Shown piece after piece: positions 3,170 to 52,665 of a stretch of DNA of 64,000 nucleotides. Where the stretch lies: positions 11,968 to 75,967 of the forward strand of contig MWCU01000054.1 of NCBI GenBank assembly GCA_002070205.1, in the 5' to 3' direction. A program made the translations under genes and the position numbers. Position 1 is the stretch's first letter. Each line of letters starts with the position of its first letter. Under the pieces are notes generated by a model. That model searched no databases and was not told where the DNA came from. It saw only the letters and a list, made by a program, of their open reading frames with translations. Source of the stretch: Firmicutes bacterium ADurb.Bin182. GTDB taxonomy: Bacteria; Bacillota; Clostridia; Christensenellales; CAG-138.

Positions 3170-3234
3170 AACTTATTCCAATCAAACGCAAAGGAAACTT
3201 TTATAACCGCATATGCGGTGAAAGCGGGTATACG

Positions 3235-8077: not shown

Positions 8078-8350
8078 AAAAGGCCGCTTTAGCGGCGGCC
8101 TGTAGAAAAAATGCAGTTTGCAGATTATTCGATGCGTCTTGAGACGCAGCAAGCAGTATGCCCTTTTAGGGCTTGTGCATACCACGCGTTTAACGCGTGG
8201 TTTTGATTCAGGTGAAATAAAAAAACTCAAAATATTGCTCTTAGTCTGTTTTTCTGCTTGCAGCAACAACATTAAAGGAAGAGTCAATATCGGCATGAAC
8301 CACTAAGATGAACGGCTGATTCAATATTGGTAATTGCCGAAAGCCCGCAA

Positions 8351-18414: not shown

Positions 18415-18458
18415 CGCGCCGCCGTGATGCAGCTTATCGGCAATCCGGCAGCGCGCAA
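18415..18458 (-). repeat. 44-bp copy of the 23312-23355 terminator hairpin, overlapping the adhesin stop codon
   Basis: CGCGCCGCCGTGATGCAGCTTATCGGCAA..CGGCAGCGCGCAA, 42/44 identical to the upstream copy. Confidence 0.9.
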
Positions 18459-21400
18459 GTTTTAATATTAATGATGTTATCGGGTTTTTTTCGCTTCTTA
18501 ACTATCACGAACACCGTTAAGGCAAAGCCGGTAAATATCGCGGCCCATCCCGCCGCGCTTTCACCGCTTCCTGTTTTAGGGGGAGGCAGAGTCGCCGGAC
18601 CCCATGCAGCAAACAGAATAATGTCGCTGTTACCCATTATGAGCGGGCTTTCAACTCGAGTGCCGTCACGAAGCTCCCAGCCCAAGAATATAAATCCCGG
18701 TTTTGATAGCCCCGCGCCCGAGGCGAGGGTTATGCTGTCGCCCGTGTAATAGCGGTTCATATCCACGGGAACGGCGCCTGTTCCGCCGTTCGTATGGTAG
18801 GATACGGTATAGCGGTTTACTGTAGGTTCCGATTGCTCAGATTTTTTAAAAACCGCTTTAAAACTCATATTGCTGTCCACCATAACGGTTATTGGGTTAA
18901 CCTCCGAATAAAATACCCAACTGCTATCTTCGCTTAGTGCCGCATAAGCCGCGCCGTTCAATAATGCATCCGGATCGTTTTCGTTGACGGGGACATCACT
19001 GCTGCCGGTATTCCCGGGGACTAACCAATGAAGGAACGTGTAGCCGCGCCCGGGTACAGCCGTGAGAGTTACGGATGTTTCTTCCTGATAAGTGCCGCCC
19101 TGAGGATCGAACGTAATTTTGCCGCCGCCCTCGGAATCATCTTCTAAAACCGCATCCGCAGTCACGGTAAATGTACCAAGTTCGGTAAAGATTGCGGTAT
19201 AGGTCAGATCTCCTTCGATCTTTTCCGGGAATTCGGCTGACCATCCGCTGAACTTGTAGTCTTCATCCGCTATGGGAGTCGGCGTTGTTACACTTTCATC
19301 CCATGCCGAACCGGTAAGAATACCGGAAAATTGTACTTGTGTTTCGCCGCCGGTAAAAGACCCGTGTTCGCCCGCTATAAATGTGACGGTGTGCCAATCG
19401 CTTTCTTTAATTTTAAAATATGCGGTGTAGACAGCCGTTTCATATTTACCGTCTTTCTGTCCGGGTATTATCGGATTTTCGGTTATATGCATGCTGTCAT
19501 CATCGCGTGTCCAATAGTCAAATTCATAGCCCGGCATAGCTTCTGCTTCTGAACCTTGCGCTTTGCCCGTTTCGGGGTTAAGTTCTTCGCTGTTCCGGCT
19601 GACCGAACCCATTTCATTGTCGGCGGATATATAGCTGATGGTTACTTTATCAAGCTCAGTAAAATACGCGGTATAGGCAAGATTTTCGCTCCAGCCTTCG
19701 TCTGGTCTGTTTACTGTTAATGTTTCCTCTGAGGTTACAGTGTCGGTCCCTTTTCTCCACTCCACAAAACGGTAACCCGGTTTCGGTATCGCTTTCGAGC
19801 TGACAGACGATACGCCTGAGTGCAAAACAGCGCTTGTTAAGTCCACCGTGCCCATGCTGTCATTGTCGGCTCTGAACGTGACAGTATATGTTTTTTCAAA
19901 GTTTGCGGCATATGTGACGGGTACCCAGACCGCTCCCGGTTTTGTCGGCACAAAGTTCGCATCCGTGCTGACTTCAACGCCATCACAAGTCCAGTTAACA
20001 AAGCGGTAGCCGTCGCTTGCCGTCGCGGTTGAGCCTTGCGCTATGCCTGTTGCAGGGGCAAGGCTCTCGCTGCTTCGGTCGATCGAACCGCCGACGCCCG
20101 CCGTGTATGTTATGGTAACATTGGCGTTTTCTATGAAATTTGCGATATAGGTGACTGGCATCCAGACCGCTCCCGGTTTTGTCGGCACAAACTTCGCATC
20201 CGTGCTGACTTCAACGCCATCACAAGTCCAGTTAACAAAGCTGTAGCCGACGTCTGCCGTTGCCTTTGAGCCTTGAGCTATGCCTGTAGCCGGGGCAAGG
20301 CTTTCGCTGCTCGGGTCGACCGAACCGCCGGCGCCCGCCGTATATGTTATGGTCACATCAGGTTTTTCTCTAAAGGTTGCGGTATATGTTTCAGTTTCGG
20401 TGATTGTTTCCGGCAAGACGGGGTCCCATTTATCGAACTCATATCCGGCATTTGCGACAGGTTCCGGCTCTGTGTCTATGGCGTCTTCCCATGCCGTTCC
20501 TGTGAGAATATCGGTAAATTCAGTTTTTGTTCCGGCGGCAAAATATCCGTGATCGCCTGCTTCAAACGTAACGGTATGCCATTGACCGGGATCCTTTATA
20601 AAGCTTACTTTATAAGTTATGCTCGCAGTTATCATGCTTTCGCTATTGCTGTCCGGCAATTCGGGACTCCAATTCGCCGCATAACCATTGTCCGGAACCG
20701 GCGTAGGTACTGTTATTCCGGCATCTTTCCATTTCGTACCGTTTAAAATCTCATACTGCGTTTTACCGTTAAGATGTCCGTTGCCGCCGTCTGTTTCGAA
20801 CAAGACTTTATGCCACATAGCGGGATCCTTTTCAAAATATGCGGTATAAGCCGCATCGCTCCAGCCGCCGGCGGGTTTAGAAACCGTCAGCACGGCGTTT
20901 GAGGAAACAAAATCATTGGAGTCTCGCCATTCAACAAAACGGTAACCCGTATTCGGGGTCGCAGCGGAACTGACCGAAACCGTATTCAGGTCCACGCTTG
21001 CACTTGCGGGGCTGACCGTACCCATGGCTGAATCGCCGGAATTAAAAGTAATCGTATGTGGGACTGGCTCGAAGTATGCGGTATAAGCCGCATTACTCCA
21101 GCCGCCGGCGGGCTTAGGAACCGTCAGCACGGCGTTTGAGGAAACAAAACCATTGGAGTCTCGCCATTCAACAAAACGGTAACCCGTATTCGGGGTCGCA
21201 GTGGAACTGACCGAAACCGTATTCAAGTCCACACTTGCACTTGCGGGGCTGACTGTACCCATGGATGAATCGCCGGAATTAAAAGCAATCGTATATGGTA
21301 CAGGCTCGAAGTATGCGGTATAAGTTACATCACTCCAGCCGCCTGCGGGTTGAAAAACCGTCAAAACGGCATTATTGGAAACGGGATTCTCGCCGTTTCT

Positions 21401-23029
21401 CCACTCAATAAATCGATAGCCCGCATTAGGAATCGCAGTGGAGCTTACAGATGATACGCCTGAATGCAGAACAGAGCTTGTTAAGTCCACCGTGCCCATG
21501 CTGTTATTGCCGGATTCAAACGTAGCGGTATAAGTTTTTTCAAAGTTTGCCCTAAATGTTAAGGGTATCCAGGGACCTCCTTCCGGTTTTGGCGGCACAA
21601 ATTTCGCATCTTGACCAACTTCAACGCCGTTATGGGTCCAATTAACAAAGCGGTAGCCGTCGTTCGCTGTCGCGGTTGAACCTTGCGCTATGCCCGTAAC
21701 CGGGGCAAGGCTTTCGCTGCTTCGATCGACCGAGCCGCCGACACCTGCTTCGTATGTGATGGTTACATCGGCATTTTCTCTGAAGTTTGCGGTATAGGTG
21801 ACAGGTACCCAGACCACTCCCGGCTTTGTCGGCACGAACTTTGCATCCGTGCTGACTTCAACGCCATCACAAGTCCAGTTAACAAAGCTGTAACCGATGT
21901 TCGCCGTTGCGGTTGAGCCTTGCGCCACGCCTATCTTAGGGTTAAGCCACTCGCTGCTTGGGTTTATCGAACCGCCTGCTGTTGCTTCGTAATTGATCGG
22001 TATATGCTTAAGTTCTTTGAATAGCGCTGTATAAGTTTTTGTTTCTGTTATCGTATCCGGCAATTCGGGATCCCATTTATCGAACTCGTAGCCGTCTGAC
22101 GGGTGTATGGACGGCATTGGTTTTATTGCCGTATTCCATGGTGTTCCGGTTATTATATTGGAAAAGATTTTTGTACCGAGTAATGACCCATGTTCGCCCG
22201 CCTGAAGCGTAACGGTAAAGCGTTCCTCGGGATTCTCTTTCCATCTTGCGGTATAGGTCTTATCTTGATTTATTATGCCTGTATCGCCGGGCAGCGCAGG
22301 ATCCCACCTGTCAAATAAATATCCGGGTTTGCGGTTCGTTTCTGGTACCGTTATGCCGGCGTTTCTCCACTCTGTGCCGCTGGTGACTCTGAACTCCGCT
22401 GTCCCCGAAAGCGTGCCCTTATTCGGATCTTCGGTCACGAAATTTATCGTGTACTTGGGGGAATAGTAAACTCTTAACTGTAAGTGGTCGAGCCATATAT
22501 CCTTACTTCCTCCCGTGCATTTCAGCCAGACGCGTAATGGATCATTTACCAGCCCGGGCGTCCACATGTCATAGCCCCACTTTTCGGTGGGACCGCCCAG
22601 TATTATTGTCGACCATGAAGTACTGCTGACAGCCCCTGTGTCTTTAAAATAAGTAAAATTGCCTACCGGCGCATGATTACTATCACGCAGAGATACTTCC
22701 AGCGAGCGGTATTCATTTTCATTTCCATTTTCGTTGCATCGAACCCTCAAGTGCACTTCAATCCCATCTATCCTGCAGTCTTCGGGCACAATGGGTGCGC
22801 TATGTTCTGTGAAAGTATATTCTACTATTGAATCTTCAATGTAAAACCTGGCATATTGTCCGTCAGATGAATAGGCATTTTCCGGGTCACTTACCAACTC
22901 AGGGTTGCTAAAGCGTATATAGGACTGTGCGCTTAACAGCCCGGTATCATCCGCCAGCGCAAGCGGCCTTGCCATGACGAATATGAAAGAAAAAATCAAG
23001 ACCAACGCGAGAATTCTTCTGCACGACAT
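18434..23029 (-). CDS. giant sortase-anchored adhesin with about 16 Listeria-Bacteroides-type (GYxFxxW) repeat domains
   Basis: Start ATG 23029 behind GGGGAGG. Signal peptide ...RPLALA. Repeated ~75-80 aa modules ending ..YTA.F. C-terminus has PPKTG, a hydrophobic helix and KKRKK. Confidence 0.85.
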   Translation of the reverse strand: MSCRRILALVLIFSFIFVMARPLALADDTGLLSAQSYIRFSNPELVSDPENAYSSDGQYARFYIEDSIVEYTFTEHSAPIVPEDCRIDGIEVHLRVRCNENGNENEYRSLEVSLRDSNHAPVGNFTYFKDTGAVSSTSWSTIILGGPTEKWGYDMWTPGLVNDPLRVWLKCTGGSKDIWLDHLQLRVYYSPKYTINFVTEDPNKGTLSGTAEFRVTSGTEWRNAGITVPETNRKPGYLFDRWDPALPGDTGIINQDKTYTARWKENPEERFTVTLQAGEHGSLLGTKIFSNIITGTPWNTAIKPMPSIHPSDGYEFDKWDPELPDTITETKTYTALFKELKHIPINYEATAGGSINPSSEWLNPKIGVAQGSTATANIGYSFVNWTCDGVEVSTDAKFVPTKPGVVWVPVTYTANFRENADVTITYEAGVGGSVDRSSESLAPVTGIAQGSTATANDGYRFVNWTHNGVEVGQDAKFVPPKPEGGPWIPLTFRANFEKTYTATFESGNNSMGTVDLTSSVLHSGVSSVSSTAIPNAGYRFIEWRNGENPVSNNAVLTVFQPAGGWSDVTYTAYFEPVPYTIAFNSGDSSMGTVSPASASVDLNTVSVSSTATPNTGYRFVEWRDSNGFVSSNAVLTVPKPAGGWSNAAYTAYFEPVPHTITFNSGDSAMGTVSPASASVDLNTVSVSSAATPNTGYRFVEWRDSNDFVSSNAVLTVSKPAGGWSDAAYTAYFEKDPAMWHKVLFETDGGNGHLNGKTQYEILNGTKWKDAGITVPTPVPDNGYAANWSPELPDSNSESMITASITYKVSFIKDPGQWHTVTFEAGDHGYFAAGTKTEFTDILTGTAWEDAIDTEPEPVANAGYEFDKWDPVLPETITETETYTATFREKPDVTITYTAGAGGSVDPSSESLAPATGIAQGSKATADVGYSFVNWTCDGVEVSTDAKFVPTKPGAVWMPVTYIANFIENANVTITYTAGVGGSIDRSSESLAPATGIAQGSTATASDGYRFVNWTCDGVEVSTDANFVPTKPGAVWVPVTYAANFEKTYTVTFRADNDSMGTVDLTSAVLHSGVSSVSSKAIPKPGYRFVEWRKGTDTVTSEETLTVNRPDEGWSENLAYTAYFTELDKVTISYISADNEMGSVSRNSEELNPETGKAQGSEAEAMPGYEFDYWTRDDDSMHITENPIIPGQKDGKYETAVYTAYFKIKESDWHTVTFIAGEHGSFTGGETQVQFSGILTGSAWDESVTTPTPIADEDYKFSGWSAEFPEKIEGDLTYTAIFTELGTFTVTADAVLEDDSEGGGKITFDPQGGTYQEETSVTLTAVPGRGYTFLHWLVPGNTGSSDVPVNENDPDALLNGAAYAALSEDSSWVFYSEVNPITVMVDSNMSFKAVFKKSEQSEPTVNRYTVSYHTNGGTGAVPVDMNRYYTGDSITLASGAGLSKPGFIFLGWELRDGTRVESPLIMGNSDIILFAAWGPATLPPPKTGSGESAAGWAAIFTGFALTVFVIVKKRKKPDNIINIKTCALPDCR
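20833..21545 (-). repeat. three tandem ~237-bp intragenic repeats (two nearly identical)
   Basis: 20833-21069 and 21070-21306 differ at only a few positions. 21307-21545 is more diverged. Confidence 0.85.
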
Positions 23030-23304
23030 ATTTTCTTGCCTCCCCGGAATATTGAATTGCAACTGTTTTCCCTTTTATTATGTATCCCAAAAGTCCGTGC
23101 CGCTGAAGGCACGTTCCTAAAAAACCTGCTCAGATGCTGTTTACCCGTCAGGGTAAGCAACAGTTCCCTATTAAAGAGTAGCATAAAAAAAAGGCTGCGG
23201 CATCGTACCTAAGTACGATATTGCGACAAAATTCTTATATAAGGGAAGACTGATTAAGGCTTTCCTAAATAACCGGTCGACTTGATGCCGCCGGAGTCGG
23301 CAGA

Positions 23305-24718: not shown

Positions 24719-24853
24719 AGAGCTTCGCTCGCAGAGCGGCAGCTTAGCTGCCGTAGAGAACGCTTACGCGCGTCGAGAGGAAGCTTACGCTTCCGCAGAG
24801 TCGTAGAGAGCAAGCTGCGCTTGCGTATAGAATAAGCGCAAAGCATTTTATTC
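24719..24853 (+). repeat. tandem array of 21-25 bp AGAG-prefixed mini-hairpins
   Basis: Six to seven units. The arms differ but remain complementary: CGGCAGC/GCTGCCG, GGAAGC/GCTTCC, GCAAGC/GCTTGC, GAGC/GCTC. Confidence 0.8.
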
Positions 24854-24858
24854 AGACT

Positions 24859-25071
24859 GTCAAAAAACCCCTCCTAGGGATTATCAAGGGATCGGAACCC
24901 CTTGATTTACATTCCGGCTTCGGTGGCATGTACGTTGAAACGGATGAAATTCGTAAGAATTTCGTACATTGCACGCTTTGACGCTCGAAAATCTCTGATT
25001 TTAGTTCGTCAAAAATCTTGTTTTTGACTACGTGTAAATCTCGAAAAAGTCTGTACAGCCTTTTTCGACAC
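24859..25071 (+). repeat. structured dispersed element, copy A
   Basis: Shares ordered conserved boxes with 52337-52527 and with the reverse complement of 43589-43882. Confidence 0.85.
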
Positions 25072-25182
25072 GCTGCATAAACGCAAAGCGTTTATTCTCT
25101 ACTATTGCTCAACAATTGCTTTACGGCTGTGATTGCGCCATAGCGTAACTCGCAGTCTTTGCGGCTTTGCAGCTCCGGCGTA

Positions 25183-29274: not shown

Positions 29275-31278
29275 TTGAACAAAAAACTAAAAACGCCTTT
29301 AATATATCTTATTATTATCGTCGCAATCATAATAATGGCTACGGGTCTTGACCCTCAGCGGAAAACTCCGGAGGAATGGGATTATAAGCATTTCCTGAAC
29401 GCCGTAAGGGAAGATAAAGTCGCGGCCGCGGAACTCACCGTGATAGAACTGAGGGGGCTTCTGAAGGGCAGTGAGATAAAAAGGGAGGACTTCCCGAAAT
29501 CCTCTGATTTTGTGCTTACTGTTCCGAGCGAAGAAACGTTCAAGGCCGATATGGCGGTCATATATGCCGAAAAGCTCGGCAAATCACCCGATTTGGTTAC
29601 AGCTACCGATTATGCGTTCGACTATGCCAGCAAACAGGCGCCCAAAGCCGGTTTGTTCGAGGTGCTGCTCCCTTATCTTCTGATATTCGGCGCAATAGGA
29701 ATATTCTATTATTTCATGATGCAGCAGCAGGGCGGCGGCAACAAGGTCATGAGCTTCGGAAAGTCGCGCGCGCGCACGAATCTCGATTCCGCGAATAAGG
29801 TCACGTTCGATAATGTGGCGGGCGCAGACGAGGAAAAGGAAGAGCTTAAAGAAGTCGTTGAGTTTATGCGCAATCCCAAGCGATTTTCGCAGATGGGCGC
29901 AAGGATCCCCAAGGGCGTGCTGCTCGTTGGCCCTCCGGGAACCGGGAAAACTCTGCTTGCAAAGGCTGCCGCGGGAGAAGCGGATGTTCCGTTTTACTCC
30001 ATATCCGGTTCCGACTTTGTTGAAATGTTCGTAGGCGTCGGAGCATCGCGCGTACGCGACCTTTTTAACACGGTGAAGAAAACCGCTCCGGCAGTCGTCT
30101 TCATCGATGAAATAGACGCCGTCGGCCGTCAGCGCGGGGCGGGCCTCGGGGGTGGGCATGATGAGCGCGAGCAGACGCTTAACCAGCTTCTCGTCGAAAT
30201 GGACGGTTTCGCGCCCAATGAAGGAATAATCGTGATTGCGGCCACAAACAGGCCGGATATCCTTGACCCGGCTCTTTTAAGGCCGGGCAGGTTTGACAGG
30301 CAGATCACCGTCAACTACCCCGATGTCAAAGGGCGGGAAGACATTTTGAAGGTGCATGCGAAAAACAAACCTTTTGAGGACGACGTGGATCTTTCCGTTC
30401 TTGCGAAGCGTACCCCGGGTTTCACGGGCGCGGACCTTGAAAACGTGCTGAACGAGGCTGCCATACTCGCGGCAAGGTTCCACAAAAACAAAATCGGCAT
30501 GAACGAGCTTGAGGAGGCGATTACGCGCGTAGTCGTCGGTCCCGAGAAAAAGAGCCGCGTCATTACCGCGGAAGATAAAAAAATTACGGCGTATCATGAA
30601 TCGGGCCACGCTATCGTTGCAATGAAGCTGCCCGGGTGCGACCCCGTTCACGAGGTGAGCATAATCCCGCGCGGCCTTGCGGGCGGTTATACGATGACCC
30701 TTCCCAAGGAAGACATGAGGCATATGACGCGCGGCAAGATACTCGACGAGATAGCGATGCTTTTGGGCGGACGCGTAGCGGAGACTCTTGCGCTTGGAGA
30801 TATCAGCACGGGCGCTTATAACGATTTGCAGCGCGCGAGCGATCTTGCGAGGAAAATGGTAGTCGAGTACGGCATGAGCGAAGAAATAGGGCCGGTGTTT
30901 CTCGGCGGAAAAGAAGAAGTCTTTATCGCGAAGGACTGGGGTCATCAGCGTAATTTCTCCGAGGAGATCGCGGCGAAGGTGGACGCCGAGATAAAGCGCA
31001 TATTGGAAGAGCAGTTTAAAAGGGCGCGGGATGTCATCAACGCCGATATGGAAGCTCTCGGCCGTACCGCCGCGGCGCTCATTGAGTATGAGCGGGTTAC
31101 CGGAGAGGAATTCGAGGCCATCTATGAGGGCAGGGATGTAGAGATTTCGGCTTTCGTAACAAAACCGGCAGAGAAGACCGAAAAGGAAAACGAAACGCAA
31201 ACGCCGCCACCTGAACCGGAACAGCAAACCCCGGAAGTAATCGAAAAAGCGGAAGACGATTCAAATAAAGGCGATTAG
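29275..31278 (+). CDS. ftsH: ATP-dependent zinc metalloprotease FtsH
   Basis: Two N-terminal TM helices, Walker [12 protein letters not shown] region, HESGHA zinc site. TTG start behind GGGAGG. Confidence 0.95.
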
Positions 31279-31413
31279 GGGATTATTAAGGGGCCGAGCG
31301 GAAATTTTCGATTGCAGGCAAAACATGTACAATTTGAAGGGGTCCATCCGGACTTCTTCGATACTCAAACCCGGCCGTGCCGGGTTATTTTACGAACAGG
31401 AGCTGTCGGCCGC

Positions 31414-32373: not shown

Positions 32374-33396
32374 TTGAATATGGTTCCGGGTATCATCAAA
32401 ATATTCGCGGGAAGAACGGGCAGGGTTTTCGCCTCGAAAATGTGCGATTATCTCGGTGCAAAGCTGGGTGATTCCGAGACGATCAGGTTCTCCGAAGGGA
32501 ATATATTCGTAAAGGTAAATGAATCCATAAGGGATAAGGATGTATATATCGTTCAGCCCATAGGCCGCGAACCCAACGATGAATTTGTGGAACTTCTTTT
32601 CTGGATAGACGCATTCAAGCGCGCAAGCGCAAATTCCGTTACCGCCATCATCCCGTATTTCAGCTACGCAAAAGGAGATAAAAAGGACGAACCCCGCGTT
32701 TCCATACGCGCGAGAGTATGTGCCGAATGCATTGAGCTTGCGGGAGCGGACCGCATTTTGACAATGGACCTTCATAGTGCTCAGGTCCAGGGATTTTTCA
32801 AAAAACCGGTCGATCATCTGTACGCGAGTTCCATTCTGTGCGAATATGCAAGAAGAATAGGCATTGTGGATGAGGACCTCGTGGTCGTATCGCCGGACGC
32901 CGGATTCGCGAAACGCGCGAGGCAGTTTGCAAATGAGCTTGGCTGCCCGGTCGCTATCGGCGACAAAACGCGCTCCGATCATGACGAAAAAGCAAAAGTG
33001 CTTGAGATCATCGGCGACGTAAAAGGCAAGAATTGTCTTGTCGTCGACGACTTTACGATTTCAGGCGGAACTTTGGTCGATTTGGCTCTCGGGCTCAAGG
33101 ATAAGGGAGCGAAAAGGATATTTGCTTTCCTGTCGCATATAGTTTTAGGCGAAGCCGGAGTCAAAAAAATCGAAGAGAGTCCGATTGAGCTGCTGGTTTC
33201 CACCGATACCGTGCAATGCCCCGCCGTGAAAGGATCGGGCAAGATCAAAATCGTTTCCGCCGCTCCCATGTTTGCGGAAGCCGTCAGGATCATCCACGAC
33301 CGCGAACCCATGAGCAAGATGTTCACTGAGTCCGCGTCAAGGCGGATGTTCGATATGAGCTTCGCGTCGCAGCTGAGCATAAAGGATATTAGATAG
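32374..33396 (+). CDS. prs: ribose-phosphate pyrophosphokinase
   Basis: DLHSAQVQGFF and PRPP-loop VVDDFTISGGTL motifs. The start could be TTG 32374 or ATG 32380. Confidence 0.9.
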   Translation: MNMVPGIIKIFAGRTGRVFASKMCDYLGAKLGDSETIRFSEGNIFVKVNESIRDKDVYIVQPIGREPNDEFVELLFWIDAFKRASANSVTAIIPYFSYAKGDKKDEPRVSIRARVCAECIELAGADRILTMDLHSAQVQGFFKKPVDHLYASSILCEYARRIGIVDEDLVVVSPDAGFAKRARQFANELGCPVAIGDKTRSDHDEKAKVLEIIGDVKGKNCLVVDDFTISGGTLVDLALGLKDKGAKRIFAFLSHIVLGEAGVKKIEESPIELLVSTDTVQCPAVKGSGKIKIVSAAPMFAEAVRIIHDREPMSKMFTESASRRMFDMSFASQLSIKDIR

Positions 33397-33575
33397 TTTT
33401 CAGTATATAGTAACAAGTATTCAGTTGAATGAAAAAAATCTGCCTCCCGGCAGATTTTTTTTGAACTAATAACTTTATCAGTTTTCAGTATATAGTAATA
33501 AGTATTCAGTTTATGAAAAAAAATCTGCGGCAGCAGATTTTTCATTAAATTATAACTTTATCAGTTTTGAGTATT
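33397..33575 (+). repeat. two and a bit tandem ~84-bp modules (AT-rich box + AAATCTGCC..GGCAGATTT hairpin)
   Basis: Units 33397-33481 and 33482-33564. A partial third unit is cut off at 33575. Confidence 0.85.
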
Positions 33576-33702
33576 CGGACGAAATGGGCGGGCGATTCGT
33601 GAATCGCCCCTACATATAGGAATAACATGTCAGTACAATACAACATATTGTAGGGAACGACCCCCATGTCGTTCCGAATTTGTATTTCCGGGCAACCCTT
33701 TC
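33576..33702 (+). repeat. GGGCGATTC-hairpin element, copy 1
   Basis: Collinear with 60172-60349 except for one loop. Confidence 0.85.
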
Positions 33703-33741
33703 CTGAACTTATAACTCATTACTTATTATTGATAACTGTTC

Positions 33742-33766
33742 AAATCTGCCTCCCGGCAGATTTTTC
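33742..33766. terminator. AAATCTGCC-TCCC-GGCAGATTT hairpin (bidirectional terminator-like)
   Basis: Perfect 9-bp stem with A/T runs on both sides. It lies between the convergent prs and murC genes. Confidence 0.6.
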
Positions 33767-33799
33767 ATGAACTTATAACTGAATACTTATTACTGAGAA

Positions 33800-35164
33800 C
33801 TATAAAAGCTTTTTAGTCTGCTTATACACGTCTCCGCTGCCGAGGGTCAAAACGAGGTCGCCGGGTTTTGCGGTCGTTTTAAGATAATCGCGCACGTCCT
33901 CGAATGTCGGAGTATAGCGGGCGTCGATCCCCGCGTTTACAAATGCGTTTACCATGTCCCCGGCATGAACGGTGCCGTCGTCCTTCTCGCGCCCCGGATA
34001 AATGTCTACCGTCAGCACTTCATCCGCGCCGGCAAGGCATGAGGGGTCCTTTAAGAACAGAGTTTTTGCCCGCGTATAGGAATTGCATTGAAGGACCGCT
34101 ATCAGCCTGTTGCGCTTCACCCTATTCGCGGTCTCAATTATCGCACGGATCTCGCCGGGATGATGGGCAAAGTCGTGGTAAAGCATTGCGCCCTCGGGCG
34201 TTTTGCCGTAAAACTCAAACCTGCGCTTGGCAAGCCTGTAGCGAGATAATGCCTCGGCGGCCTTTTTTATGTCCGATTTCAGCTCGAGCGCGACCGCCAT
34301 CGCGGCGAGCGAATTCATAACGTTATGCGTTCCCGGAACGTGAAGCGTTATCCGCGCGAGTTTTTCACCCTTGTAAGTAAAGTCATAGGACGCTGAGCCC
34401 GAATCGTCGAATTCGATGTTCTGCGGGCGGCAGTCTCCGCCGTGCATTCCGTAAGTCAGCTTACGTCCCTTGAATTCCCCGAGCAGCTTTATTACGTGCT
34501 CGTCGTCCGTGCAGCCTATAAACAAACCGTCTTCCGGAAGCTTATTGACGAATTTTCTAAACGCGTCCGTGATGGCGTCGATGTCCTTGAAATAGTCGAG
34601 ATGATCGTCATCGATGTTATGAATAAGAGCTATGGTCGGCCGCAGCGTTAAAAAACTTTCCACATATTCGCAGGCTTCGGTAATAAAGAGGTCTTTTGAG
34701 CCGACGCGCGTCCCTCCGCCTAAAAACTCTTCGTATCCGCCTACGTGTACAGTGGCATCCGGTCCTCCCGTCAAACTGATAAGAGCGAGCATGGATGTTA
34801 TCGTGGTTTTGCCGTGGCAGCCGGCAATGCCGACAACGCTTTTGTATCCTTCGGATAATTGTCCGAGAGCGACGGAACGCTCAAGCTCCGGGATGCCGGC
34901 TTCGCGCGCGGCGCGGCGCTCCGGGTTATCCGGCTTGATTGCCGCCGAATAGATTATTAAATCGCTGCTGCCTATGTTTTCAGGCCTGTGTCCGATAAAT
35001 ACGGGAATGCCGAGCTCAATGAGCCTGTCGGTAAAAGGGGAATCGGTAACGTCTGAACCCTGGACCTTCAAGCCCCGATCGGATAGCAGCTGGGCAAGCC
35101 CGTTCATGGAGCACCCCCCGATTCCGATCAGGTGAACTTGTTTATGATTATTGATATGCGTCAT
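33800..35164 (-). CDS. murC: UDP-N-acetylmuramate--L-alanine ligase
   Basis: GIGGCSMNGLA and GCHGKTTITSM motifs, with a Mur ligase C-terminal domain. Confidence 0.95.
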   Translation of the reverse strand: MTHINNHKQVHLIGIGGCSMNGLAQLLSDRGLKVQGSDVTDSPFTDRLIELGIPVFIGHRPENIGSSDLIIYSAAIKPDNPERRAAREAGIPELERSVALGQLSEGYKSVVGIAGCHGKTTITSMLALISLTGGPDATVHVGGYEEFLGGGTRVGSKDLFITEACEYVESFLTLRPTIALIHNIDDDHLDYFKDIDAITDAFRKFVNKLPEDGLFIGCTDDEHVIKLLGEFKGRKLTYGMHGGDCRPQNIEFDDSGSASYDFTYKGEKLARITLHVPGTHNVMNSLAAMAVALELKSDIKKAAEALSRYRLAKRRFEFYGKTPEGAMLYHDFAHHPGEIRAIIETANRVKRNRLIAVLQCNSYTRAKTLFLKDPSCLAGADEVLTVDIYPGREKDDGTVHAGDMVNAFVNAGIDARYTPTFEDVRDYLKTTAKPGDLVLTLGSGDVYKQTKKLL

Positions 35165-37010: not shown

Positions 37011-38013
37011 ACTAATCACATGGGAAAAGACCGGCTCCGATGATCCGATCTATTACCTATACGACGCGAACGGGAACCTCTGGGGTCTGAAATACGATGG
37101 CAGCACGTACTTCTATATCCGAAACGCCCAAAACGATATCACCGGAATAGTTGATTCGACCGGCGCTGTTGTGGTAACGTATAGCTATGATGCGTGGGGC
37201 AAGCTGCTTGACGTATCCGGCACTAAGGCAGCTACATTAGGGCAGGATAATCCGTTCCGTTACAGAGGGTATTATTACGATACGGAGACGGGACTGTATT
37301 ATCTGCAGAGCAGGTATTATAACCCGGAGTGGTGCAGGTTTATTAATGCGGATGTCTACGTTTCCACCGGGCAGGGGTTGTTGGCAAGCAATATGTTTGC
37401 GTATTGCGCGAATAATCCGGTATTGCTAAAAGATCCAAGCGGGTTTGCCTACGTTATAGGTGATGATGAACATGGTAGGCCAATACTGTATTTTCCCCCA
37501 AAATCTTCACCTTCTAAAACAAATTCTGAAAGAGTAATTGATACAGTAAAGAATTCATCAACATATAAGAAAAATTCATCGGATATTTCTACTATTGTTC
37601 AAAGAAGTGGTGGAACGATAATAGATGATTCAAGAATCGAAATAAACAACATAAGAACATCATTTGTATCAGACAAAATTGCATATAACACATATATTAA
37701 AAACTGCATAGCTGAGACAGGTAATATAAACAGAGGAAAGAGTATATTGGCTGCAGCATTAGGGATGGTACCAGGTATGGGTGAAGTAGCTACTGTAATT
37801 GATTATGTAACAGGTTTTGACACTGAAATTAACGGAGATTATTATGATACATTAGGAGGTAACTATGTATTCGCGGATGTTACTTATATAGTAGATTTTG
37901 ATTTTCGAGGAATCGGTGAAGGAAAGAAGATCACATATTATGGTAGTGTTGTTGTTGGTCCGTCAATTGATAATCCCTTAAATAGTGTTTCTTGGTATGG
38001 TTGGAAAGATTGA
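37009..38013 (+). CDS. orphan RHS-core tail + DPSGF junction + ~190-aa unknown C-terminal toxin domain (no ATG/RBS)
   Basis: The frame opens at 37009 right after a stop. Reads ...YDAWGKLL..DNPFRYRGYYYDTETGLYYLQSRYYNPEWCRFINADVY...NNPVLLKDPSGF. The only listed start is GTG 37171. Confidence 0.75.
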   Translation, partial: VLITWEKTGSDDPIYYLYDANGNLWGLKYDGSTYFYIRNAQNDITGIVDSTGAVVVTYSYDAWGKLLDVSGTKAATLGQDNPFRYRGYYYDTETGLYYLQSRYYNPEWCRFINADVYVSTGQGLLASNMFAYCANNPVLLKDPSGFAYVIGDDEHGRPILYFPPKSSPSKTNSERVIDTVKNSSTYKKNSSDISTIVQRSGGTIIDDSRIEINNIRTSFVSDKIAYNTYIKNCIAETGNINRGKSILAAALGMVPGMGEVATVIDYVTGFDTEINGDYYDTLGGNYVFADVTYIVDFDFRGIGEGKKITYYGSVVVGPSIDNPLNSVSWYGWKD

Positions 38014-38033
38014 TAGAATTGGAGATTTTTATA

Positions 38034-38984
38034 ATGGAAACATTGAAAAGAACTCTAGTATGCGCATTGCTGATTATTATAATGATTTTGACTGGTTGCA
38101 GACCAAACAATAAATCGGATTACAATAGAAATTCTTTAGTTGCCGCATTGAATTTAGACTGCCAAGTAAGTATTAACAATGACGGTGCGGTTAACGTGAT
38201 AGATAAAACTCGAGGTAGTGGCTTTGATTTCAGCGACTGGCAGGACATAAAGAGCGTTTCAGCAAGCGAAGTTCAATTAGGTGCAATAAAAGTAGATGGT
38301 TCGGTGGTTATGACAGGCTATCCTGGTTTTGTTATGGACTTGACCGATTGGAAGGATATTGATATGTTGGAATTTACCGATTTTGCAGCATATGGACTGA
38401 AAGAAGACGGAACAATAATTTTTCAAAACGTGGATGATTCTCAGGTAGATGAAACTGTCAATGAAACGGTGAAGGTATGGAGAGATATCAGTTACATTGA
38501 TACTGGATTTCAAGCTATTGTTGGTGTTACGAAAAACGGTAAGGTCGTTGCATCGGTTCCTCAATTTCCGGATTTAGAAAAGAGAGTGAATCAATGGGAA
38601 GATATTAAAATGGTTAGCATATCTAATAACTTCTTTGGAAGAGCCAGGATAGTCGCAGTAAAAAACAACGGAGAAATCGTTGAAGAAAGGTATGAAGAAT
38701 CTGAAATCATTAAATACGATTTAGAGTCTTATGAAGATCTAAAAGGTGCTGTGAAAATCTGTGCAGGAGATTATTTTACCGCTGGATTAATGCCTGATGG
38801 GACATTAAAAGTAAGATGTGGCCTTGATTATGATAAGCGGCTTATGTCAGAAGTAGAAGGAGAATTTTTAGATCTAAGAAATCTAGATAATACCAAGGAC
38901 GTGGCAGACATAAACAGCTTTGAGGATATTCTCGTTGTTTTGAAAAATGATGGTACAATTTTGGTTGGTGGTTTTGAAGATTAG
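38034..38984 (+). CDS. lipoprotein with beta-propeller-like DG(T/S)hh repeats; putative immunity protein 1
   Basis: GGAGA RBS. Lipobox MILTGC. Six repeats centred on DGSVVMTG / DGTIIFQ / NGKVVAS / NGEIVEE / DGTLKVR / DGTILVGG. AT-rich. Confidence 0.6.
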   Translation: METLKRTLVCALLIIIMILTGCRPNNKSDYNRNSLVAALNLDCQVSINNDGAVNVIDKTRGSGFDFSDWQDIKSVSASEVQLGAIKVDGSVVMTGYPGFVMDLTDWKDIDMLEFTDFAAYGLKEDGTIIFQNVDDSQVDETVNETVKVWRDISYIDTGFQAIVGVTKNGKVVASVPQFPDLEKRVNQWEDIKMVSISNNFFGRARIVAVKNNGEIVEERYEESEIIKYDLESYEDLKGAVKICAGDYFTAGLMPDGTLKVRCGLDYDKRLMSEVEGEFLDLRNLDNTKDVADINSFEDILVVLKNDGTILVGGFED

Positions 38985-39025
38985 ACTCTAAGCGTGATTG
39001 TGACATACGATATACGATTGTTACA

Positions 39026-39631
39026 ATGAACTACAACGGCAGCGTGTACTTCTATGTTCGAAACGCGCAGAACGACATCGTAAGCATAGTTGATTCCACC
39101 GGCACTGTTGTGGTAACGTATAGCTATGATGCGTGGGGCAAGCTGTTTGACGTGTCCGGTGCTAAGGCAACTACATTAGGCAAAGACAATCCGTTCCGTT
39201 ACAGAGGGTATTACTTTGATTCGGAAACTGGATTGTATTATCTGCAGAGCAGGTATTATAACCCGGAATGGGGAAGGTTTATCAATGCGGATGTCTACGT
39301 TTCCACGGGACAAGGGTTATTGGCGAGCAATATGTTTGCGTATTGCGCTAATAATCCGGTTATGTTTTCCGATGAACATGGTTATCGTTATGCTATTTCT
39401 GCTGGTATAGGAGGACTTAATGCTGAAGATAGAGCTCGTAAAGAAATGAAGGATCTTCAGTCGCTCAAGGGGATAACTGGTTATGTAAACGATCAAAGAA
39501 AATTACCGGGTCTACAGCTTGGTTCAAAGGGCAATTTACCTAAACATGGGTGTGGGGTTGTTGCTGTACATAACGCCATTGTTTTAACTGGGAAAGAGTC
39601 TAATTTATATGATGTAATATATGTATTTTAA
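39026..39631 (+). CDS. orphan RHS-core tail + DEHGY junction + N-terminal part of a Cys-containing toxin domain
   Basis: Same core tail as 37009-37446. After the junction only 83 aa remain, containing Q...KHGCGVVAVHNAI. There is no SD before ATG 39026. Confidence 0.7.
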   Translation: MNYNGSVYFYVRNAQNDIVSIVDSTGTVVVTYSYDAWGKLFDVSGAKATTLGKDNPFRYRGYYFDSETGLYYLQSRYYNPEWGRFINADVYVSTGQGLLASNMFAYCANNPVMFSDEHGYRYAISAGIGGLNAEDRARKEMKDLQSLKGITGYVNDQRKLPGLQLGSKGNLPKHGCGVVAVHNAIVLTGKESNLYDVIYVF

Positions 39632-39944
39632 TGATGATTCAAATATAATTAAAAGAACTTTTGTAAATCCGATAGCGATTATGAAATATCTAAATAATCA
39701 AGGTTTAAATACATCGATTAATTGGTTCGATAATAAAGTATTAGATTCTGATGCATGTATTGTTATTTATAAATGGGAAATAAATGATAAATGGGATTTA
39801 CATTACCAGACTATAGCAAAAGTAAATTTCGGCGATGCAAATACTTATATAGCATTTAGTAAAACTGGTTTTTATACAAATCCCCAAGATTATATAAAGG
39901 AAAACGCTATAACAGAAATGTATGGGATTATTGGTATAAATTGA
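39621..39944 (+). CDS. 107-aa protein: either a small immunity protein or the frameshifted C-terminal half of toxin 2
   Basis: Overlaps the previous ORF by 11 nt in another frame. Contains WDLHYQTIAKV, which resembles a papain-fold His motif. Confidence 0.5.
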   Translation: MYFNDDSNIIKRTFVNPIAIMKYLNNQGLNTSINWFDNKVLDSDACIVIYKWEINDKWDLHYQTIAKVNFGDANTYIAFSKTGFYTNPQDYIKENAITEMYGIIGIN

Positions 39945-39957
39945 GGTGAATAGGATT

Positions 39958-41205
39958 ATGGCGCGTAAAATATTTAAATATTTGCTAATACTCATGATAT
40001 TGAATATAGTCGTGGGATGTACCGGTTGTGTACATAGTTATAAAAATTTTGAAGGAAGCCTTACTCGAAAAGTAATGCTAAAACAGAATGTTTACAGCAG
40101 TACCGGACAATTTGCCGCTTTCAATAAAGATCGAATATACTATATTTCACAAGAAGCAGATAATAATGGGATATACAGTATGAAGACTGATGGATCGGAT
40201 ATAAAGTTTGAGTTGGAAACTACAAAAGTCACGAGAATACAAGTTACAGATAACGAAATATATTATGTTGGTGTAAAAGAAGAAAGAGAGAATAAAAACA
40301 GGCTCTATGGACTTTATGAATTCGATAGATCCAATCCTGGTATAAAAAGTGTTAATTATACAGATATTCAAAGCGACGCAACAACAGAAGATGCATTTGT
40401 TTTTGCAAGTGGTACTATCGCAGTTATGGATGAAACAGGACTTTTTAGTACATTGCAACCCTCCACCGGAATTTTTGTTGTATCAAATAATACCAATTAT
40501 AATTTTGTCAAAAGGCCTGCTAAAATATCTGAAGACTTCTTTATTGCGGAATTTCAAGATTTCATTATCGTTAGCAGGTCATATCCTAATGCACATAAAA
40601 GTAAAAATATGATAAATGATTTCGCTAGCAGTCTTGTTGATGTACATAGCGGTGAATACGTAATGGATAATCTTTTTGAAGATGAGTTACGAGTTTTTTA
40701 TTCGGATGAAAAACAAATCATTAGTTCCCTAAATAATGTTTTAATTTTCATAGACCGCGATACACTGACAGAAAACAGAACGATAACTATTGGTAAAACT
40801 AATGAGAATCAGGAAGTAGCATATATTTTTAAAGATGGTGATATTTTATATGTAGTCATGAGAAACGATAATGATAGATATAACAGCAGCCTTTTCAGCG
40901 TGGATATATCTTCCGCGGAAGTAAAAAAGATAACATCGCTTAATGCTGGTAAATTAGTATTAAACATTGATAAAGGCAAGATTTATTGGGTAAAAGGTGC
41001 GAATATTTATTGTAATCTAGTTAATTCGCAGCGGATTGGGGACCGAGTAAGTAAAATTACAATCGATGAAACTATTACAGATAGTGATAATAGCATCGAA
41101 ATCGCCGGTAATTGGCTATTTATTTATAAAAACTCGGACATTAATGAACTTTGTTACAAAATTAACTTGGCGAATCTTCAAGTAATAAAGATTAATCGCC
41201 AATAG
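39958..41205 (+). CDS. DUF5050-like beta-propeller lipoprotein; putative immunity protein 2
   Basis: GAGGTG RBS. Lipobox VVGCTGC. Repeated ..IYY....D.NGIY.M..DGSD.. motifs. Confidence 0.6.
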   Translation: MARKIFKYLLILMILNIVVGCTGCVHSYKNFEGSLTRKVMLKQNVYSSTGQFAAFNKDRIYYISQEADNNGIYSMKTDGSDIKFELETTKVTRIQVTDNEIYYVGVKEERENKNRLYGLYEFDRSNPGIKSVNYTDIQSDATTEDAFVFASGTIAVMDETGLFSTLQPSTGIFVVSNNTNYNFVKRPAKISEDFFIAEFQDFIIVSRSYPNAHKSKNMINDFASSLVDVHSGEYVMDNLFEDELRVFYSDEKQIISSLNNVLIFIDRDTLTENRTITIGKTNENQEVAYIFKDGDILYVVMRNDNDRYNSSLFSVDISSAEVKKITSLNAGKLVLNIDKGKIYWVKGANIYCNLVNSQRIGDRVSKITIDETITDSDNSIEIAGNWLFIYKNSDINELCYKINLANLQVIKINRQ

Positions 41206-41237
41206 TATAAATAGGATAATATCGTTACTAATATATA

Positions 41238-43588: not shown

Positions 43589-43882
43589 GTGTCGAAGAAG
43601 TCTTGACAGACTTCTTCGAGTTTTACACGTTTTGCCTAAAATCGAAGATTTCCGGGCGGCCTGAGCGAATATTTTCGCGGGGAGCTGCAAAATACGATTG
43701 TCTGAAACATAGATTTCAGACTACCTTGTGGATTTCATCCGTTTCACCGCATAATCGCTGATGACGGAACGTATCAGTCGATCATGCCGCTCATGCAAAA
43801 GCAGAGCTTTTGCTGGGCCGGAATGAAAATCAAGGGGCCATGCGGAAATCGAAGATTTCTGCTCAGCCCCTTAATAATCCCC
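43589..43882 (-). repeat. structured dispersed element, copy C (expanded hairpins)
   Basis: The reverse complement carries the same box order as copies A and B. It lies between two divergent promoters. Confidence 0.8.
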
Positions 43883-52244: not shown

Positions 52245-52331
52245 TGCCGACAACCCTCCCATTAATCAGTGTTTACTAAAGCGTAATTGATTGAAACACG
52301 TTCAAGAGGCAATGCAAACATGCATTGCCTC
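52245..52331 (+). repeat. ~87-bp direct repeat R1 (ends in the GGCAATGCA hairpin), copy 1
   Basis: TGCCGACAACCCTCCC..TAATCAGTG...AAGCGTAATT...AGAGGCAATGCAAACATGCATTGCCTC. A diverged copy lies at 54189-54273. Confidence 0.8.
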
Positions 52332-52336
52332 AGATC

Positions 52337-52527
52337 GTCAAAAAACCCTCATGGGGATTATCAAGGGGTCGAAATCCCTTGATTTCCATTCCGGCTTCGG
52401 CGGCATGTACGTCGAAACGGATGAAATCCGTATGGATTTCGTACTTTGCATGCTTTGCCGCCGGAAATCTCTGATTTTAGGCAAAGCATGAAAATCTCGA
52501 AAAAGTCTGCAATGACTTTTTCGACAC
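52337..52527 (+). repeat. structured dispersed element, copy B
   Basis: See copies A and C. Confidence 0.85.
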
Positions 52528-52532
52528 TCTCG

Positions 52533-52554
52533 GGCAATGCAAACCTGCATTGCC
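52533..52554 (+). repeat. second copy of the GGCAATGCA..TGCATTGCC hairpin
   Basis: Differs from 52309-52330 by one loop base. Confidence 0.85.
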
Positions 52555-52665
52555 TTTTATGATAGTGCCGGTTAAGTTAATCGCCTTTTCTATGATTCAG
52601 GAGCATTTTACGTTTGCAAACAGATCGAAATGTATGTTTGTTTAAAATCGTTTGTTATCATATAT

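What the first reader, a model, noticed from the sequence alone, without database searches (positions are those of the whole stretch)
24859..25071. Unassigned 190-290 bp structured element family with conserved boxes and compensatory stem changes (3 copies)
The copies are A 24859-25071 (+), B 52337-52527 (+) and C 43589-43882 (-). All carry the same ordered boxes: GGGGATTATCAAGGGG, CCCTTGATTTCCATTCCGGC, GGCATG, GAAACGGATGAAAT, GGAAATCT(CT/TC)GATTTTAGG, AAA(T/A)CTCGAA.AAGTCTG and CTT.TTCGACAC. Between the boxes are hairpins that differ in sequence and length but stay self-complementary. The terminal stem is TCGAAAAAG/CTTTTTCGA in A and B, but TCGAAGAAGTC/GACTTCTTCGA in C, so an A-to-G change is matched by T-to-C. 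The first stem in C replaces one C-G pair with a T-G wobble, which is tolerated only if the element strand is read as RNA. A and B share an open frame, but the expansions in C are not multiples of 3, so the element is not protein-coding. All copies are intergenic. I cannot match this to any riboswitch, sRNA, MITE or IS end that I know.
Basis: seen in the sequence. Interest (0 to 1): 0.8.

Follow-up and report, generated by a model that had tools for sequence, protein, structure and literature searches.

The report
Hairpin-rich miniature transposon family (MITE)
The repeated 190-320 bp element is a small non-coding mobile element (MITE-like) that inserts at gene ends and terminator hairpins in uncultured gut Clostridia and keeps a five-hairpin fold through compensatory mutations: a new, somewhat unusual family of a known kind, not a new riboswitch or RNA gene.

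Summary
Copies A, B and C are where stated. A fourth, internally deleted copy D lies at 31278-31369. Rfam has no match. Homologues exist in camel-gut and other metagenome contigs (E, E2, F, G), and two diverged ones (H, I) in a related MAG.

The element is mobile. At the trxB-trxA spacer, two lineages carry it flanked by a 9-bp direct repeat (TTATTCCAT). A third lineage has an empty site with one TTATTCCAT. Copies A and B are flanked by 21- and 23-nt duplications that are each a whole terminator-type hairpin. The ends form an imperfect 16-nt terminal inverted repeat (CAGnnTRTCGAAAAAG). Short-read contigs break inside A and B.

The five-helix fold is also real:
- 94% of pair cells are canonical at 57-89% sequence identity.
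- 21 pairs changed on both sides.
- Large insertions occur only in loops.
- The orthologous copies E1 and E2 differ at 9 of 70 unpaired but 1 of 106 paired positions.

G·U outnumbers A·C, which mildly favours the element-sense strand. Transcription is untested and orientation is mixed.

Best reading: a new MITE family with structure-directed, hairpin-duplicating insertion. The closest precedent is IS1272 (IS1182 family). The transposase is unknown.

The parts
24853..25076 (+). Copy A, full element (224 nt): 5'-CAGACTGTCAAAAAAC ... CTTTTTCGACACGCTGC-3'
   Evidence: Sequence; CM hit of 169 bits; ends defined by the flanking duplication. Logan contigs L002 and L003 end at window position 25023, inside this copy.
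24832..24852 (+). Left target duplication of A (ATAAGCGCAAAGCATTTTATT), a degraded copy of the hairpin
   Evidence: direct repeat with 25077-25096.
25077..25096 (+). Right target duplication of A (ATAAACGCAAAGCGTTTATT). It is the inner part of a roughly 33-nt palindrome if the element is removed.
52331..52532 (+). Copy B, full element (202 nt)
   Evidence: CM hit of 196 bits. Logan contigs L157 and L158 end at window position 52416, inside it.
52308..52330 (+). Left target duplication of B (GGCAATGCAAACATGCATTGCCT): a copy of the pckA terminator hairpin without the T tail
   Evidence: 22 of 23 identical to 52533-52555. The hairpin occurs nowhere else in the window.
52533..52555 (+). Right target duplication of B (GGCAATGCAAACCTGCATTGCCT), followed by TTTAT: an intact intrinsic terminator
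   Evidence: terminator-like site at 52532-52555.
52331..52346 (+). Left terminal inverted repeat of B (CAGATCGTCAAAAAAC)
   Evidence: Compared by eye with the reverse complement of 52517-52532. The same ends are seen in A, E, E2 and H, and less clearly in F.
52517..52532 (+). Right terminal inverted repeat of B (CTTTTTCGACACTCTCG). Its inner part is the 3' arm of helix P5.
52360..52383 (+). Helix P1 of B (ATCAAGGGGT/ATCCCTTGAT). Its loop is the site of large insertions in C and E2.
52390..52421 (+). Helix P2 of B (TCCG..TTCGGCG / CGTCGAA..CGGA)
52422..52441 (+). Helix P3 of B (TGAAATCC/GGATTTCG); 7 of 9 pairs changed on both sides across copies
   Evidence: helix 4.
52449..52490 (+). Helix P4 of B (CATGCTTTGCC/GGCAAAGCATG), with the loop box GGAAATCTCTGATTTTA
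52497..52524 (+). Helix P5 of B, the subterminal hairpin (TCGAAAAAGTC/GACTTTTTCGA). It is the most widely conserved part and is present in all copies, including H and I.
43589..43882 (-). Copy C (294 nt): expanded variant with extra hairpins in the loops. It lacks the 5' leader and left inverted repeat, and no clear target duplication was found.
   Evidence: (70.6 bits).
31278..31369 (+). Copy D (about 90 nt): a C-type copy with an internal deletion. It starts at the G of the ftsH TAG stop codon and is followed by a terminator hairpin at about 31371-31386. Its P5 has three G·U pairs.
   Evidence: (I3). It is also present in strain contig L155.

Best explanation
The copies belong to a family of non-autonomous transposable elements (MITE-like, 190-320 bp, no gene). 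Their ends are an imperfect 16-nt inverted repeat, 5'-CAGnnTRTCGAAAAAG ... CTTTTTCGACAYnnnn-3'. The right end is folded into a subterminal hairpin (P5).

A transposase encoded elsewhere is inferred but was not found. I infer that it joins the element to staggered positions of the target and that repair of the gaps duplicates the target. In ordinary DNA the duplication is 9 bp; this is shown at trxB by filled and empty sites. When the target is a terminator-type hairpin, the whole hairpin is duplicated (21 and 23 nt at A and B). That the joining occurs at the feet of an extruded stem-loop is inferred. Insertions survive at gene 3' ends: inside terminators, or 0-4 nt from stop codons.

The body of the element is a chain of five helices. 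These are kept by compensatory substitutions and tolerate large insertions only in loops. The helices are therefore under constraint as a single-stranded fold (shown). Whether the folded molecule is RNA or single-stranded/cruciform DNA, and what it does, is not shown. It might be transposase recognition, or transcript stability or termination at the insertion site.
For: Mobility:
- Filled sites at L143, L164-166 and L160-162 have TTATTCCAT (or TTATTCCGT) on both sides. The empty site in L167 has a single TTATTCCAT and an 80-nt trxB-trxA spacer.
- Flanking direct repeats occur at A (about 21 nt) and B (23 nt, 1 mismatch, found nowhere else in the window).
- In A, B and E the left repeat ends 22-24 nt before the GGGG box, and the right repeat starts 4-5 nt after CGACAC. 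Three independent copies therefore give the same ends.
- The inverted repeat is visible in A, B, E, E2, H and (less clearly) F.
- There are four copies in 64 kb, in unrelated contexts and both orientations.
- Homologues sit in non-syntenic contigs.
- Assembly breaks fall inside A and B.

Structure:
- 94% of cells paired against 84% in shuffles, 21 pairs changed on both sides, slid controls 36-52% paired.
- Pairwise identity is only 57-89%.
- Fold z-scores range from -4 to -7.8.
- Insertions of 17-115 nt lie only in loops or bulges.
- The orthologous copies E1 and E2 differ at 1 of 106 paired and 9 of 70 unpaired positions, Fisher p = 0.0012.

Precedent: IS1272 (IS1182 family) targets terminator hairpins of unrelated sequence, in both orientations, and has 16-bp inverted repeats. 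The published model includes a pathway that duplicates the whole stem-loop (PMC5678879; PMC4923244).
Against: - No transposase or full-length parent element with these ends was found. None lies in the window or in about 400 kb of fetched loci (and the Pfam columns). The genomes themselves could not be searched.
- C, D and G lack the left inverted repeat.
- Clear target duplications were seen in only 3 of 9 independent insertions.
- Their lengths differ (9, 21 and 23), which is unusual for DDE transposases.
- IS1272 itself deletes rather than duplicates the hairpin.
- Strong constraint on internal helices, also after insertion, is not expected of a purely selfish MITE.
Confidence: 0.78

Rival explanations
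1. The element is a free-standing structured non-coding RNA gene or cis-regulatory RNA. Its copies are paralogous genes kept for an RNA function, and mobility is incidental or absent.
For: - Helix covariation and loop-only insertions.
- Excess of G·U over A·C on the sense strand: 19 against 6 pairs, p about 0.007, with ascertainment bias.
- The sense strand is more stable as RNA in 8 of 10 copies.
- Helices were spared during in-situ divergence of E1 and E2.
- B and D lie in 3' UTR position in the sense orientation.
Against: - Filled and empty sites with a target duplication prove insertion.
- Orientation relative to neighbouring genes is about 4 sense to 4 antisense.
- No sigma-70-like promoter lies inside A or B.
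- There is no consistent neighbouring gene.
- C lies upstream of the promoter of its neighbour rather than in its leader.
- No Rfam family matches.
Confidence: 0.1
2. The element is a SINE-like retroelement. The structured RNA is copied into nicked targets by a reverse transcriptase that recognises the 3' hairpin (target-primed reverse transcription).
For: - Target duplications have variable length: 9, 21 and 23 nt.
- The 3' end (P5 plus tail) is intact in all nine copies, whereas the 5' leader is missing in C, D and G.
- There is an RNA-type G·U bias.
Against: - A 16-nt terminal inverted repeat is present in most full copies. This is typical of DNA transposons and not needed by retroelements.
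- C and D start at the same base, so they are not independent random 5' truncations.
- There is no A-tail or simple repeat at the 3' end.
- No reverse transcriptase was seen in any locus.
- No such bacterial system is known (my own knowledge).
Confidence: 0.06
3. The element is an IS200/IS605-type palindrome-associated element (possibly carrying an omega-RNA scaffold) or a REP/REPIN element moved by a HUH tyrosine transposase as single-stranded DNA.
For: - A strand-biased hairpin-rich body and a subterminal 3' hairpin.
- Association with hairpin targets.
Against: - These families insert without target duplication (established knowledge of IS200/IS605 and RAYT elements). Here a 9-bp duplication is shown against an empty site.
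- The Rfam IS605-orfB and HEARO models do not match.
- The size and five-helix body are unlike REPs.
Confidence: 0.02
4. The copies are neutral decaying repeats. The apparent structure would be a by-product of palindromic origin, for example hairpins captured from former target sites, with no selection.
For: - The element duplicates target hairpins, so hairpins could accrete.
- The extra hairpin in A, and the loose similarity between P4 of B and its flanking hairpin.
Against: - Single-pair compensatory changes occur within otherwise conserved helices: P3 GAAAUCC/GGAUUUC, GAAAUUC/GAAUUUC and GAAAACC/GGUUUUC.
- 94% pairing is retained at 57-89% identity.
- E1 against E2 differs at 1 of 106 paired and 9 of 70 unpaired positions.
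Confidence: 0.04

Closest known systems
Bacterial MITEs in general (for example Correia/NEMIS, RUP, BOX, ERIC, bcr1; the examples are named from my own knowledge)
   Same: Small, non-coding, multi-copy and intergenic. Has terminal inverted repeats and target-site duplication, is highly folded, often sits at gene ends, and breaks short-read assemblies.
   Different: The fold here is not simply left end pairing with right end. It is five local helices with conserved junction boxes, compensatory substitutions and loop-only expansions. The target duplication varies from 9 nt to a whole hairpin. There is no sequence similarity to any family I could search (plasmid, phage, viral and Rfam collections).
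IS1272 / TnSha1 (IS1182 family): 'stem-loop replacing' or structure-dependent transposition (PMC5678879, PMC4923244)
   Same: Targets terminator-type hairpins of unrelated sequence downstream of genes, in either orientation. Inverted repeats are 16 bp. [quoted passage not shown]
   Different: IS1272 deletes all or part of the hairpin and makes no duplication. It is a 1.9-kb autonomous IS of staphylococci. Here no transposase is known, one insertion (trxB) has an ordinary 9-bp duplication in a non-terminator target, and similarity of the end sequences to IS1272 could not be tested (one search failed).
IS200/IS605 palindrome-associated elements and TnpB/IscB omega-RNA scaffolds
   Same: Hairpin-rich, strand-asymmetric non-autonomous elements whose structured part can be an RNA.
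   Different: Those insert next to a short target motif without duplication and have no inverted repeats. Their Rfam models do not match here.
Eukaryotic SINEs
   Same: A structured, non-coding, dispersed element with variable-length target duplications and a conserved 3' end.
   Different: Terminal inverted repeats are present, there is no 3' tail, and no reverse transcriptase partner is known. This is an analogy only.

Membership tests
MITE (non-autonomous DNA transposon) | Short (under about 500 bp), with no transposase gene or other conserved ORF | tested here: met
   Copies are 90-320 nt. ORFs are short and not conserved between copies. A six-frame query found no protein homologue.
MITE (non-autonomous DNA transposon) | Several dispersed copies per genome | tested here: met
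   Four copies in 64 kb. Contigs of two independent assemblies break inside A and B. The whole genome could not be counted.
MITE (non-autonomous DNA transposon) | Target-site duplication, shown against an empty site | tested here: met
   trxB-trxA locus: filled sites have TTATTCCAT on both sides, and the empty site (L167) has one copy. A and B have 21- and 23-nt flanking repeats. C, D, G, H and I have none that I could recognise.
MITE (non-autonomous DNA transposon) | Terminal inverted repeats | tested here: inconclusive
   An imperfect 16-nt repeat, CAGnnTRTCGAAAAAG, is seen in A, B, E, E2, H and perhaps F. It is absent at the left end of C, D and G. It was judged by eye, and no statistic was computed.
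MITE (non-autonomous DNA transposon) | An autonomous partner IS with the same ends | not testable with these tools
   None lies in the window or fetched loci.
IS1182 family (IS1272-like) derivative | Mobilised by an IS1182-family DDE transposase, with ends matching that family | not tested
   No transposase was found. The IS1272 end sequence could not be obtained.
IS1182 family (IS1272-like) derivative | Insertion into hairpin or palindromic targets without primary sequence specificity | tested here: inconclusive
   A and B: yes, each has a whole hairpin duplicated. E: the target is the end of trxB, with only a 4-bp mini-palindrome. D sits just upstream of a terminator.
Rfam structured RNA families (riboswitches, sRNAs, omega-RNA/HEARO, IS605-orfB and others) | Match to a curated covariance model at its gathering score | tested here: not met
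   At gathering threshold the window gave only SRP RNA. E-value searches of A, B, C and E2 gave only sub-threshold generic hairpin hits.
Cis-regulatory leader RNA (riboswitch, T-box, attenuator) | Constant position and sense orientation in the 5' leader of a functionally coherent gene set | tested here: not met
   A, E, F and I are antisense to their neighbours. B, D and H are in 3' position. C is upstream of its neighbour's promoter.
IS200/IS605 PATE or REP/REPIN | Insertion without target duplication, with no terminal inverted repeats | tested here: not met
   A 9-bp duplication is shown against the empty site, and inverted repeats are present.

The most novel reading that the evidence does not exclude
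The conserved five-helix body is a functional RNA (or single-stranded DNA) that takes part in the element's own movement. For example, it could be a scaffold or guide recognised by an unknown enzyme, or the template of a SINE-like retrotransposition primed at the 3' hairpin. This would explain three things: the helices stay under purifying selection even at fixed insertion sites, the 3' end is always intact while 5' ends vary, and the target duplications vary in length.
Probability: 0.1. Interest if true: 0.85.

Novelty: new variant of a known kind. Interest (0 to 1): 0.42.

Why it matters
It is a previously undescribed repeat family in poorly known gut Clostridia (Christensenellales-like lineages known only from metagenome assemblies and short-read sequencing runs). 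It fragments their short-read assemblies.

It gives natural examples of a transposon that duplicates whole terminator hairpins. That outcome had only been drawn as a hypothetical pathway in the IS1272 model. The same family also makes an ordinary 9-bp duplication, which links structure-directed and ordinary target capture.

The internal helices are conserved by compensatory change, and also during in-situ divergence of an orthologous insertion. That is more constraint than a purely selfish MITE should show. The element may therefore have a role in transcript ends (it sits in or next to terminators and stop codons) or a structural requirement for mobility.

For annotation, it warns against calling such repeats new RNA genes on covariation alone.

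Tried and rejected
- Rfam at gathering and E-value thresholds: nothing.
- blastn of copy B against PLSDB plasmids and INPHARED phages: no match.
- Genome-collection scan with AAATCTYYGATTTTAGN{8,38}CTCGAA: 18 hits in unrelated phyla that lack the other boxes, so they are chance matches.
- Viral-contig scans: 0 hits for the P1/junction box and for the P5 hairpin.
- Metagenome scan: 6 hits, of which 3 are real (L143, L144, L147) and 3 are chance matches in coding sequence.
- Six-frame translations of B, E and G joined into one protein query, to fish for spuriously called ORFs in other copies: no hit. No ORF is called in A-D in the public assemblies.
- Looked for polymorphism of A-D between strains. 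All assemblies of this species carry them or break in them. The nearest relatives (FtsH 76-77% identical) are too far for site comparison: L152-154 and L159 have no copy, and L151 has two diverged ones elsewhere.
- Considered that the variable P4 hairpin mirrors the flanking target hairpin, as a guide would. Rejected, because the shared TTTGCC motif is family-wide and E shows no such match.
- Considered a protein-coding reading: rejected.
- Tried to obtain the IS1272 end sequence for comparison: not available.
- The Siguier 2014 review could not be read. My recollection that ISfinder lists direct repeats of 0-60 bp for IS1182 is therefore unverified.

Full report
**1. Observation**

Three of the boxes were tested. 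Each occurs exactly three times in the window. For the two longer boxes, no shuffle of 100 reached three matches; the 14-mer GAAACGGATGAAAT alone did so in 9 of 100.

A repeat scan and a box search revealed a fourth copy, D, at 31278-31369(+). Alignment with C shows that D is the first ~36 nt and last ~60 nt of a C-type element. The join lies in a GAAATCTTCGATT motif that occurs twice in C. A covariance model built later finds only A, B, C and D in the window.

**2. Known RNA families and coding potential**

- Rfam at gathering threshold finds only the SRP RNA at 57897-58163.
- Permissive searches of A, B, C and a homologue give only sub-threshold generic hairpin hits.
- ORFs inside the copies are short and not shared.
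- No gene is called in them in public assemblies.
- A six-frame protein query found nothing.

**3. Host and relatives**

The window matches MAG GCA_022706985.1 and two Logan assemblies. The closest FtsH proteins of other organisms are only 76-77% identical and come from Christensenellales/Clostridia MAGs.

Short-read contigs L002 and L003 end at window position 25023, inside A. L157 and L158 end at 52416, inside B. This is the behaviour of a multi-copy repeat.

A metagenome scan for CCCTTGATTTNCATTCCGGC gave three true homologues:
- E at L143 5247-5438(-), from a camel co-assembly;
- F at L144 10632-10890(-), from the same co-assembly;
- G at L147 835-1021(+).

It also gave three chance matches in coding sequence. 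E, F and G are not syntenic with the window.

A related MAG (L151) holds two diverged members, H and I. They share mainly the 3' hairpin, and H also shares the 5' leader.

**4. Mobility**

Flanking direct repeats:
- A: ATAAGCGCAAAGCATTTTATT / ATAAACGCAAAGCGTTTATT.
- B: GGCAATGCAAAC[A/C]TGCATTGCCT on both sides, found nowhere else in the window.
- E: TTATTCCAT on both sides.

In all three copies the left repeat ends 22-24 nt before the GGGG box, and the right repeat starts 4-5 nt after CGACAC. The same element ends are therefore defined three times: 5'-CAG(A/T)..TRTC(G)AAAAA(G/C) ... CTTTTTCGACAC(G/T)nn(G/C)-3'. The two ends are an imperfect 16-nt inverted repeat.

The gene next to E is trxB, in a glycine reductase operon, and the 9-nt repeat is its last three codons. 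The trxB-trxA spacer compares as follows across lineages:

| TrxB identity to E's host | Loci | State of the spacer |
|---|---|---|
| 99% | L164-166 | E is present |
| 94% | L160-162 | Orthologous copy E2, flanked by TTATTCCGT/TTATTCCAT, with a better left inverted repeat (CAGACTATCGAAAAAG) and a 115-nt insertion in the loop of helix 1 |
| 90% | L167 | Spacer is 80 nt, with a single TTATTCCAT in otherwise alignable flanks |

 This is a filled/empty pair with a 9-bp target duplication. It shows insertion directly.

Removing B and one repeat restores a canonical intrinsic terminator about 170 nt after pckA. Removing A restores a ~33-nt palindrome. A and B therefore duplicated a whole hairpin.

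Other copies sit at gene ends:
- D starts in the ftsH stop codon and precedes the terminator.
- F ends 3-4 nt from the stop codon of a YitT-family gene.
- I abuts the stop codon of prs.

Orientation relative to neighbouring genes is mixed: B, D and H are sense, C is roughly sense, and A, E, F and I are antisense.

**5. Structure**

Single copies fold far better than shuffles, with z-scores from -4.2 to -7.8. RNAalifold on four and five copies gives five helices, P1-P5.

On a model-guided alignment of eight copies:
- 94.0% of pair cells are canonical, against 84.1 +/- 1.0 in shuffles.
- 21 pairs carry changes on both sides, against 9.2 +/- 1.8.
- No shuffle of 500 reaches any of these measures.
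- Sliding the partners drops pairing to 36-52%.

Two caveats apply: there are only eight related sequences, and the alignment is fitted to the model. Even so, the copies are only 57-89% identical, so this much pairing would not survive neutral drift.

Large insertions lie only in loops or bulges. These are the P1 loop in C and E2, the P2/P3 junction in F, a P4 bulge in A, and several loops in C.

The orthologous copies E1 and E2 diverged in place. They differ at 1 of 106 paired and 9 of 70 unpaired core positions, Fisher p = 0.0012.

P5 is the most widely conserved part:
- It is present in all nine independent copies.
- It has compensated changes in C (A-U to G-C) and H (A-U to C-G).
- Single-sided changes are all to G·U (in G and D).
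- The distal part of the helix is freely covarying.

**6. Which strand, RNA or DNA**

- G·U occurs at 19 pairs and A·C at 6 (37 against 9 cells; binomial p about 0.007).
- The sense strand is more stable as RNA in 8 of 10 copies.

Both results favour the element-sense strand. They are biased, however, because the structure was derived on that strand with RNA rules. G·T is also the best tolerated mismatch in single-stranded DNA.

No sigma-70-like promoter lies inside A or B, and orientation is mixed. Transcription of the sense strand is therefore not assured. RNA against single-stranded DNA remains open.

**7. Mechanism proposed**

Shown:
- insertion with target duplication;
- conserved ends;
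- hairpin duplication at A and B;
- helix constraint.

Inferred:
- A transposase acting in trans recognises the inverted repeats and the right-end hairpin.
- It joins the 3' ends 9 bp apart in ordinary DNA, or at the feet of an extruded stem-loop, so that repair copies the whole hairpin.

The closest precedent is IS1272/TnSha1 of the IS1182 family. It inserts into terminator hairpins of unrelated sequence in both orientations and has 16-bp inverted repeats. Its published model explicitly includes a pathway that would duplicate the stem-loop, although IS1272 itself deletes it (PMC5678879; PMC4923244). Both papers cite Siguier et al. for other IS1182 members that target palindromes. My recollection that ISfinder lists direct repeats of 0-60 bp for that family is unverified (searches failed). 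Membership in IS1182 is a lead, not a finding, because no transposase or family end sequence could be compared.

**8. Rivals**

- A pure RNA-gene or riboswitch reading fails on position, orientation and the demonstrated insertion.
- IS200/IS605 or REP-type elements are contradicted by the target duplication.
- Neutral decay is contradicted.
- A SINE-like retroelement is not excluded. In its favour are the variable duplications, the always-intact 3' end and the leaderless C, D and G. Against it are the inverted repeats, the identical 5' start of C and D, and the absence of any reverse transcriptase.

**9. Verdict**

This is a new MITE family with two unusual traits: duplication of whole target hairpins, and a selectively maintained five-helix core. 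It is worth a note for annotators of gut Clostridia MAGs and for people working on structure-directed transposition. It is not a new class of system on present evidence.

Noticed in passing
window 33581-33704(+) and 60176-60350(+): A second unassigned repeat family. Three shared blocks include a 40/40 identical GAAATGGGCGGGCGATTCGTGAATCGCCCCTACATATAGG. The second copy has a ~57-nt insertion in the loop of the hairpin GGGAACGA/TGTCGTTCC. No Rfam match at gathering threshold.
   Followed up: partly
window 33395-33801(+) and 41830-41919(-): A third repeat: units of about 85 nt containing the terminator-like hairpin AAATCTGCC.CCCGGCAGATTTTT plus GAACTTATAACT...TTATTACTGA. There are four direct copies upstream of murC and inverted copies near 41.9 kb.
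   Followed up: no
window 24720-24850: Immediately left of copy A is a run of six short GC-rich hairpins (centre GC-TTA/TGC-GC), each followed by YAGAG(A). TRF does not call it a tandem repeat. It might be a trace of repeated hairpin duplication at this site, but it is unexplained.
   Followed up: partly
L160 9000-9115 (inside copy E2): A 115-nt GC-rich insertion sits exactly in the loop of helix P1 of the orthologous copy E2. A 61-aa ORF is called there in the JGI contigs, and it is probably spurious.
   Followed up: no
window 18434-23062(-): A 1542-aa ORF with 237-nt (79-aa) tandem repeats, probably a cell-surface repeat protein (D1/D3/D6/D8).
   Followed up: no
window 37088-41661: Three copies of a 300-nt repeat (62-86% identical) within a cluster of genes with weak RHS, RCC1 and DUF5050 matches. 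These look like paralogous gene starts (D2, 67).
   Followed up: no
window 3126-3456 and 8350-8683: A duplicated promoter region plus gene start, 83-92% identical, 5.2 kb apart (D5, D16).
   Followed up: no
window 52630-54158(+): An AbiEi/AbiEii-like toxin-antitoxin or abortive-infection pair lies directly downstream of copy B.
   Followed up: no
window 57897-58163(-): Bacterial large SRP RNA, 193 bits. This is consistent with a Bacillota host.
   Followed up: yes
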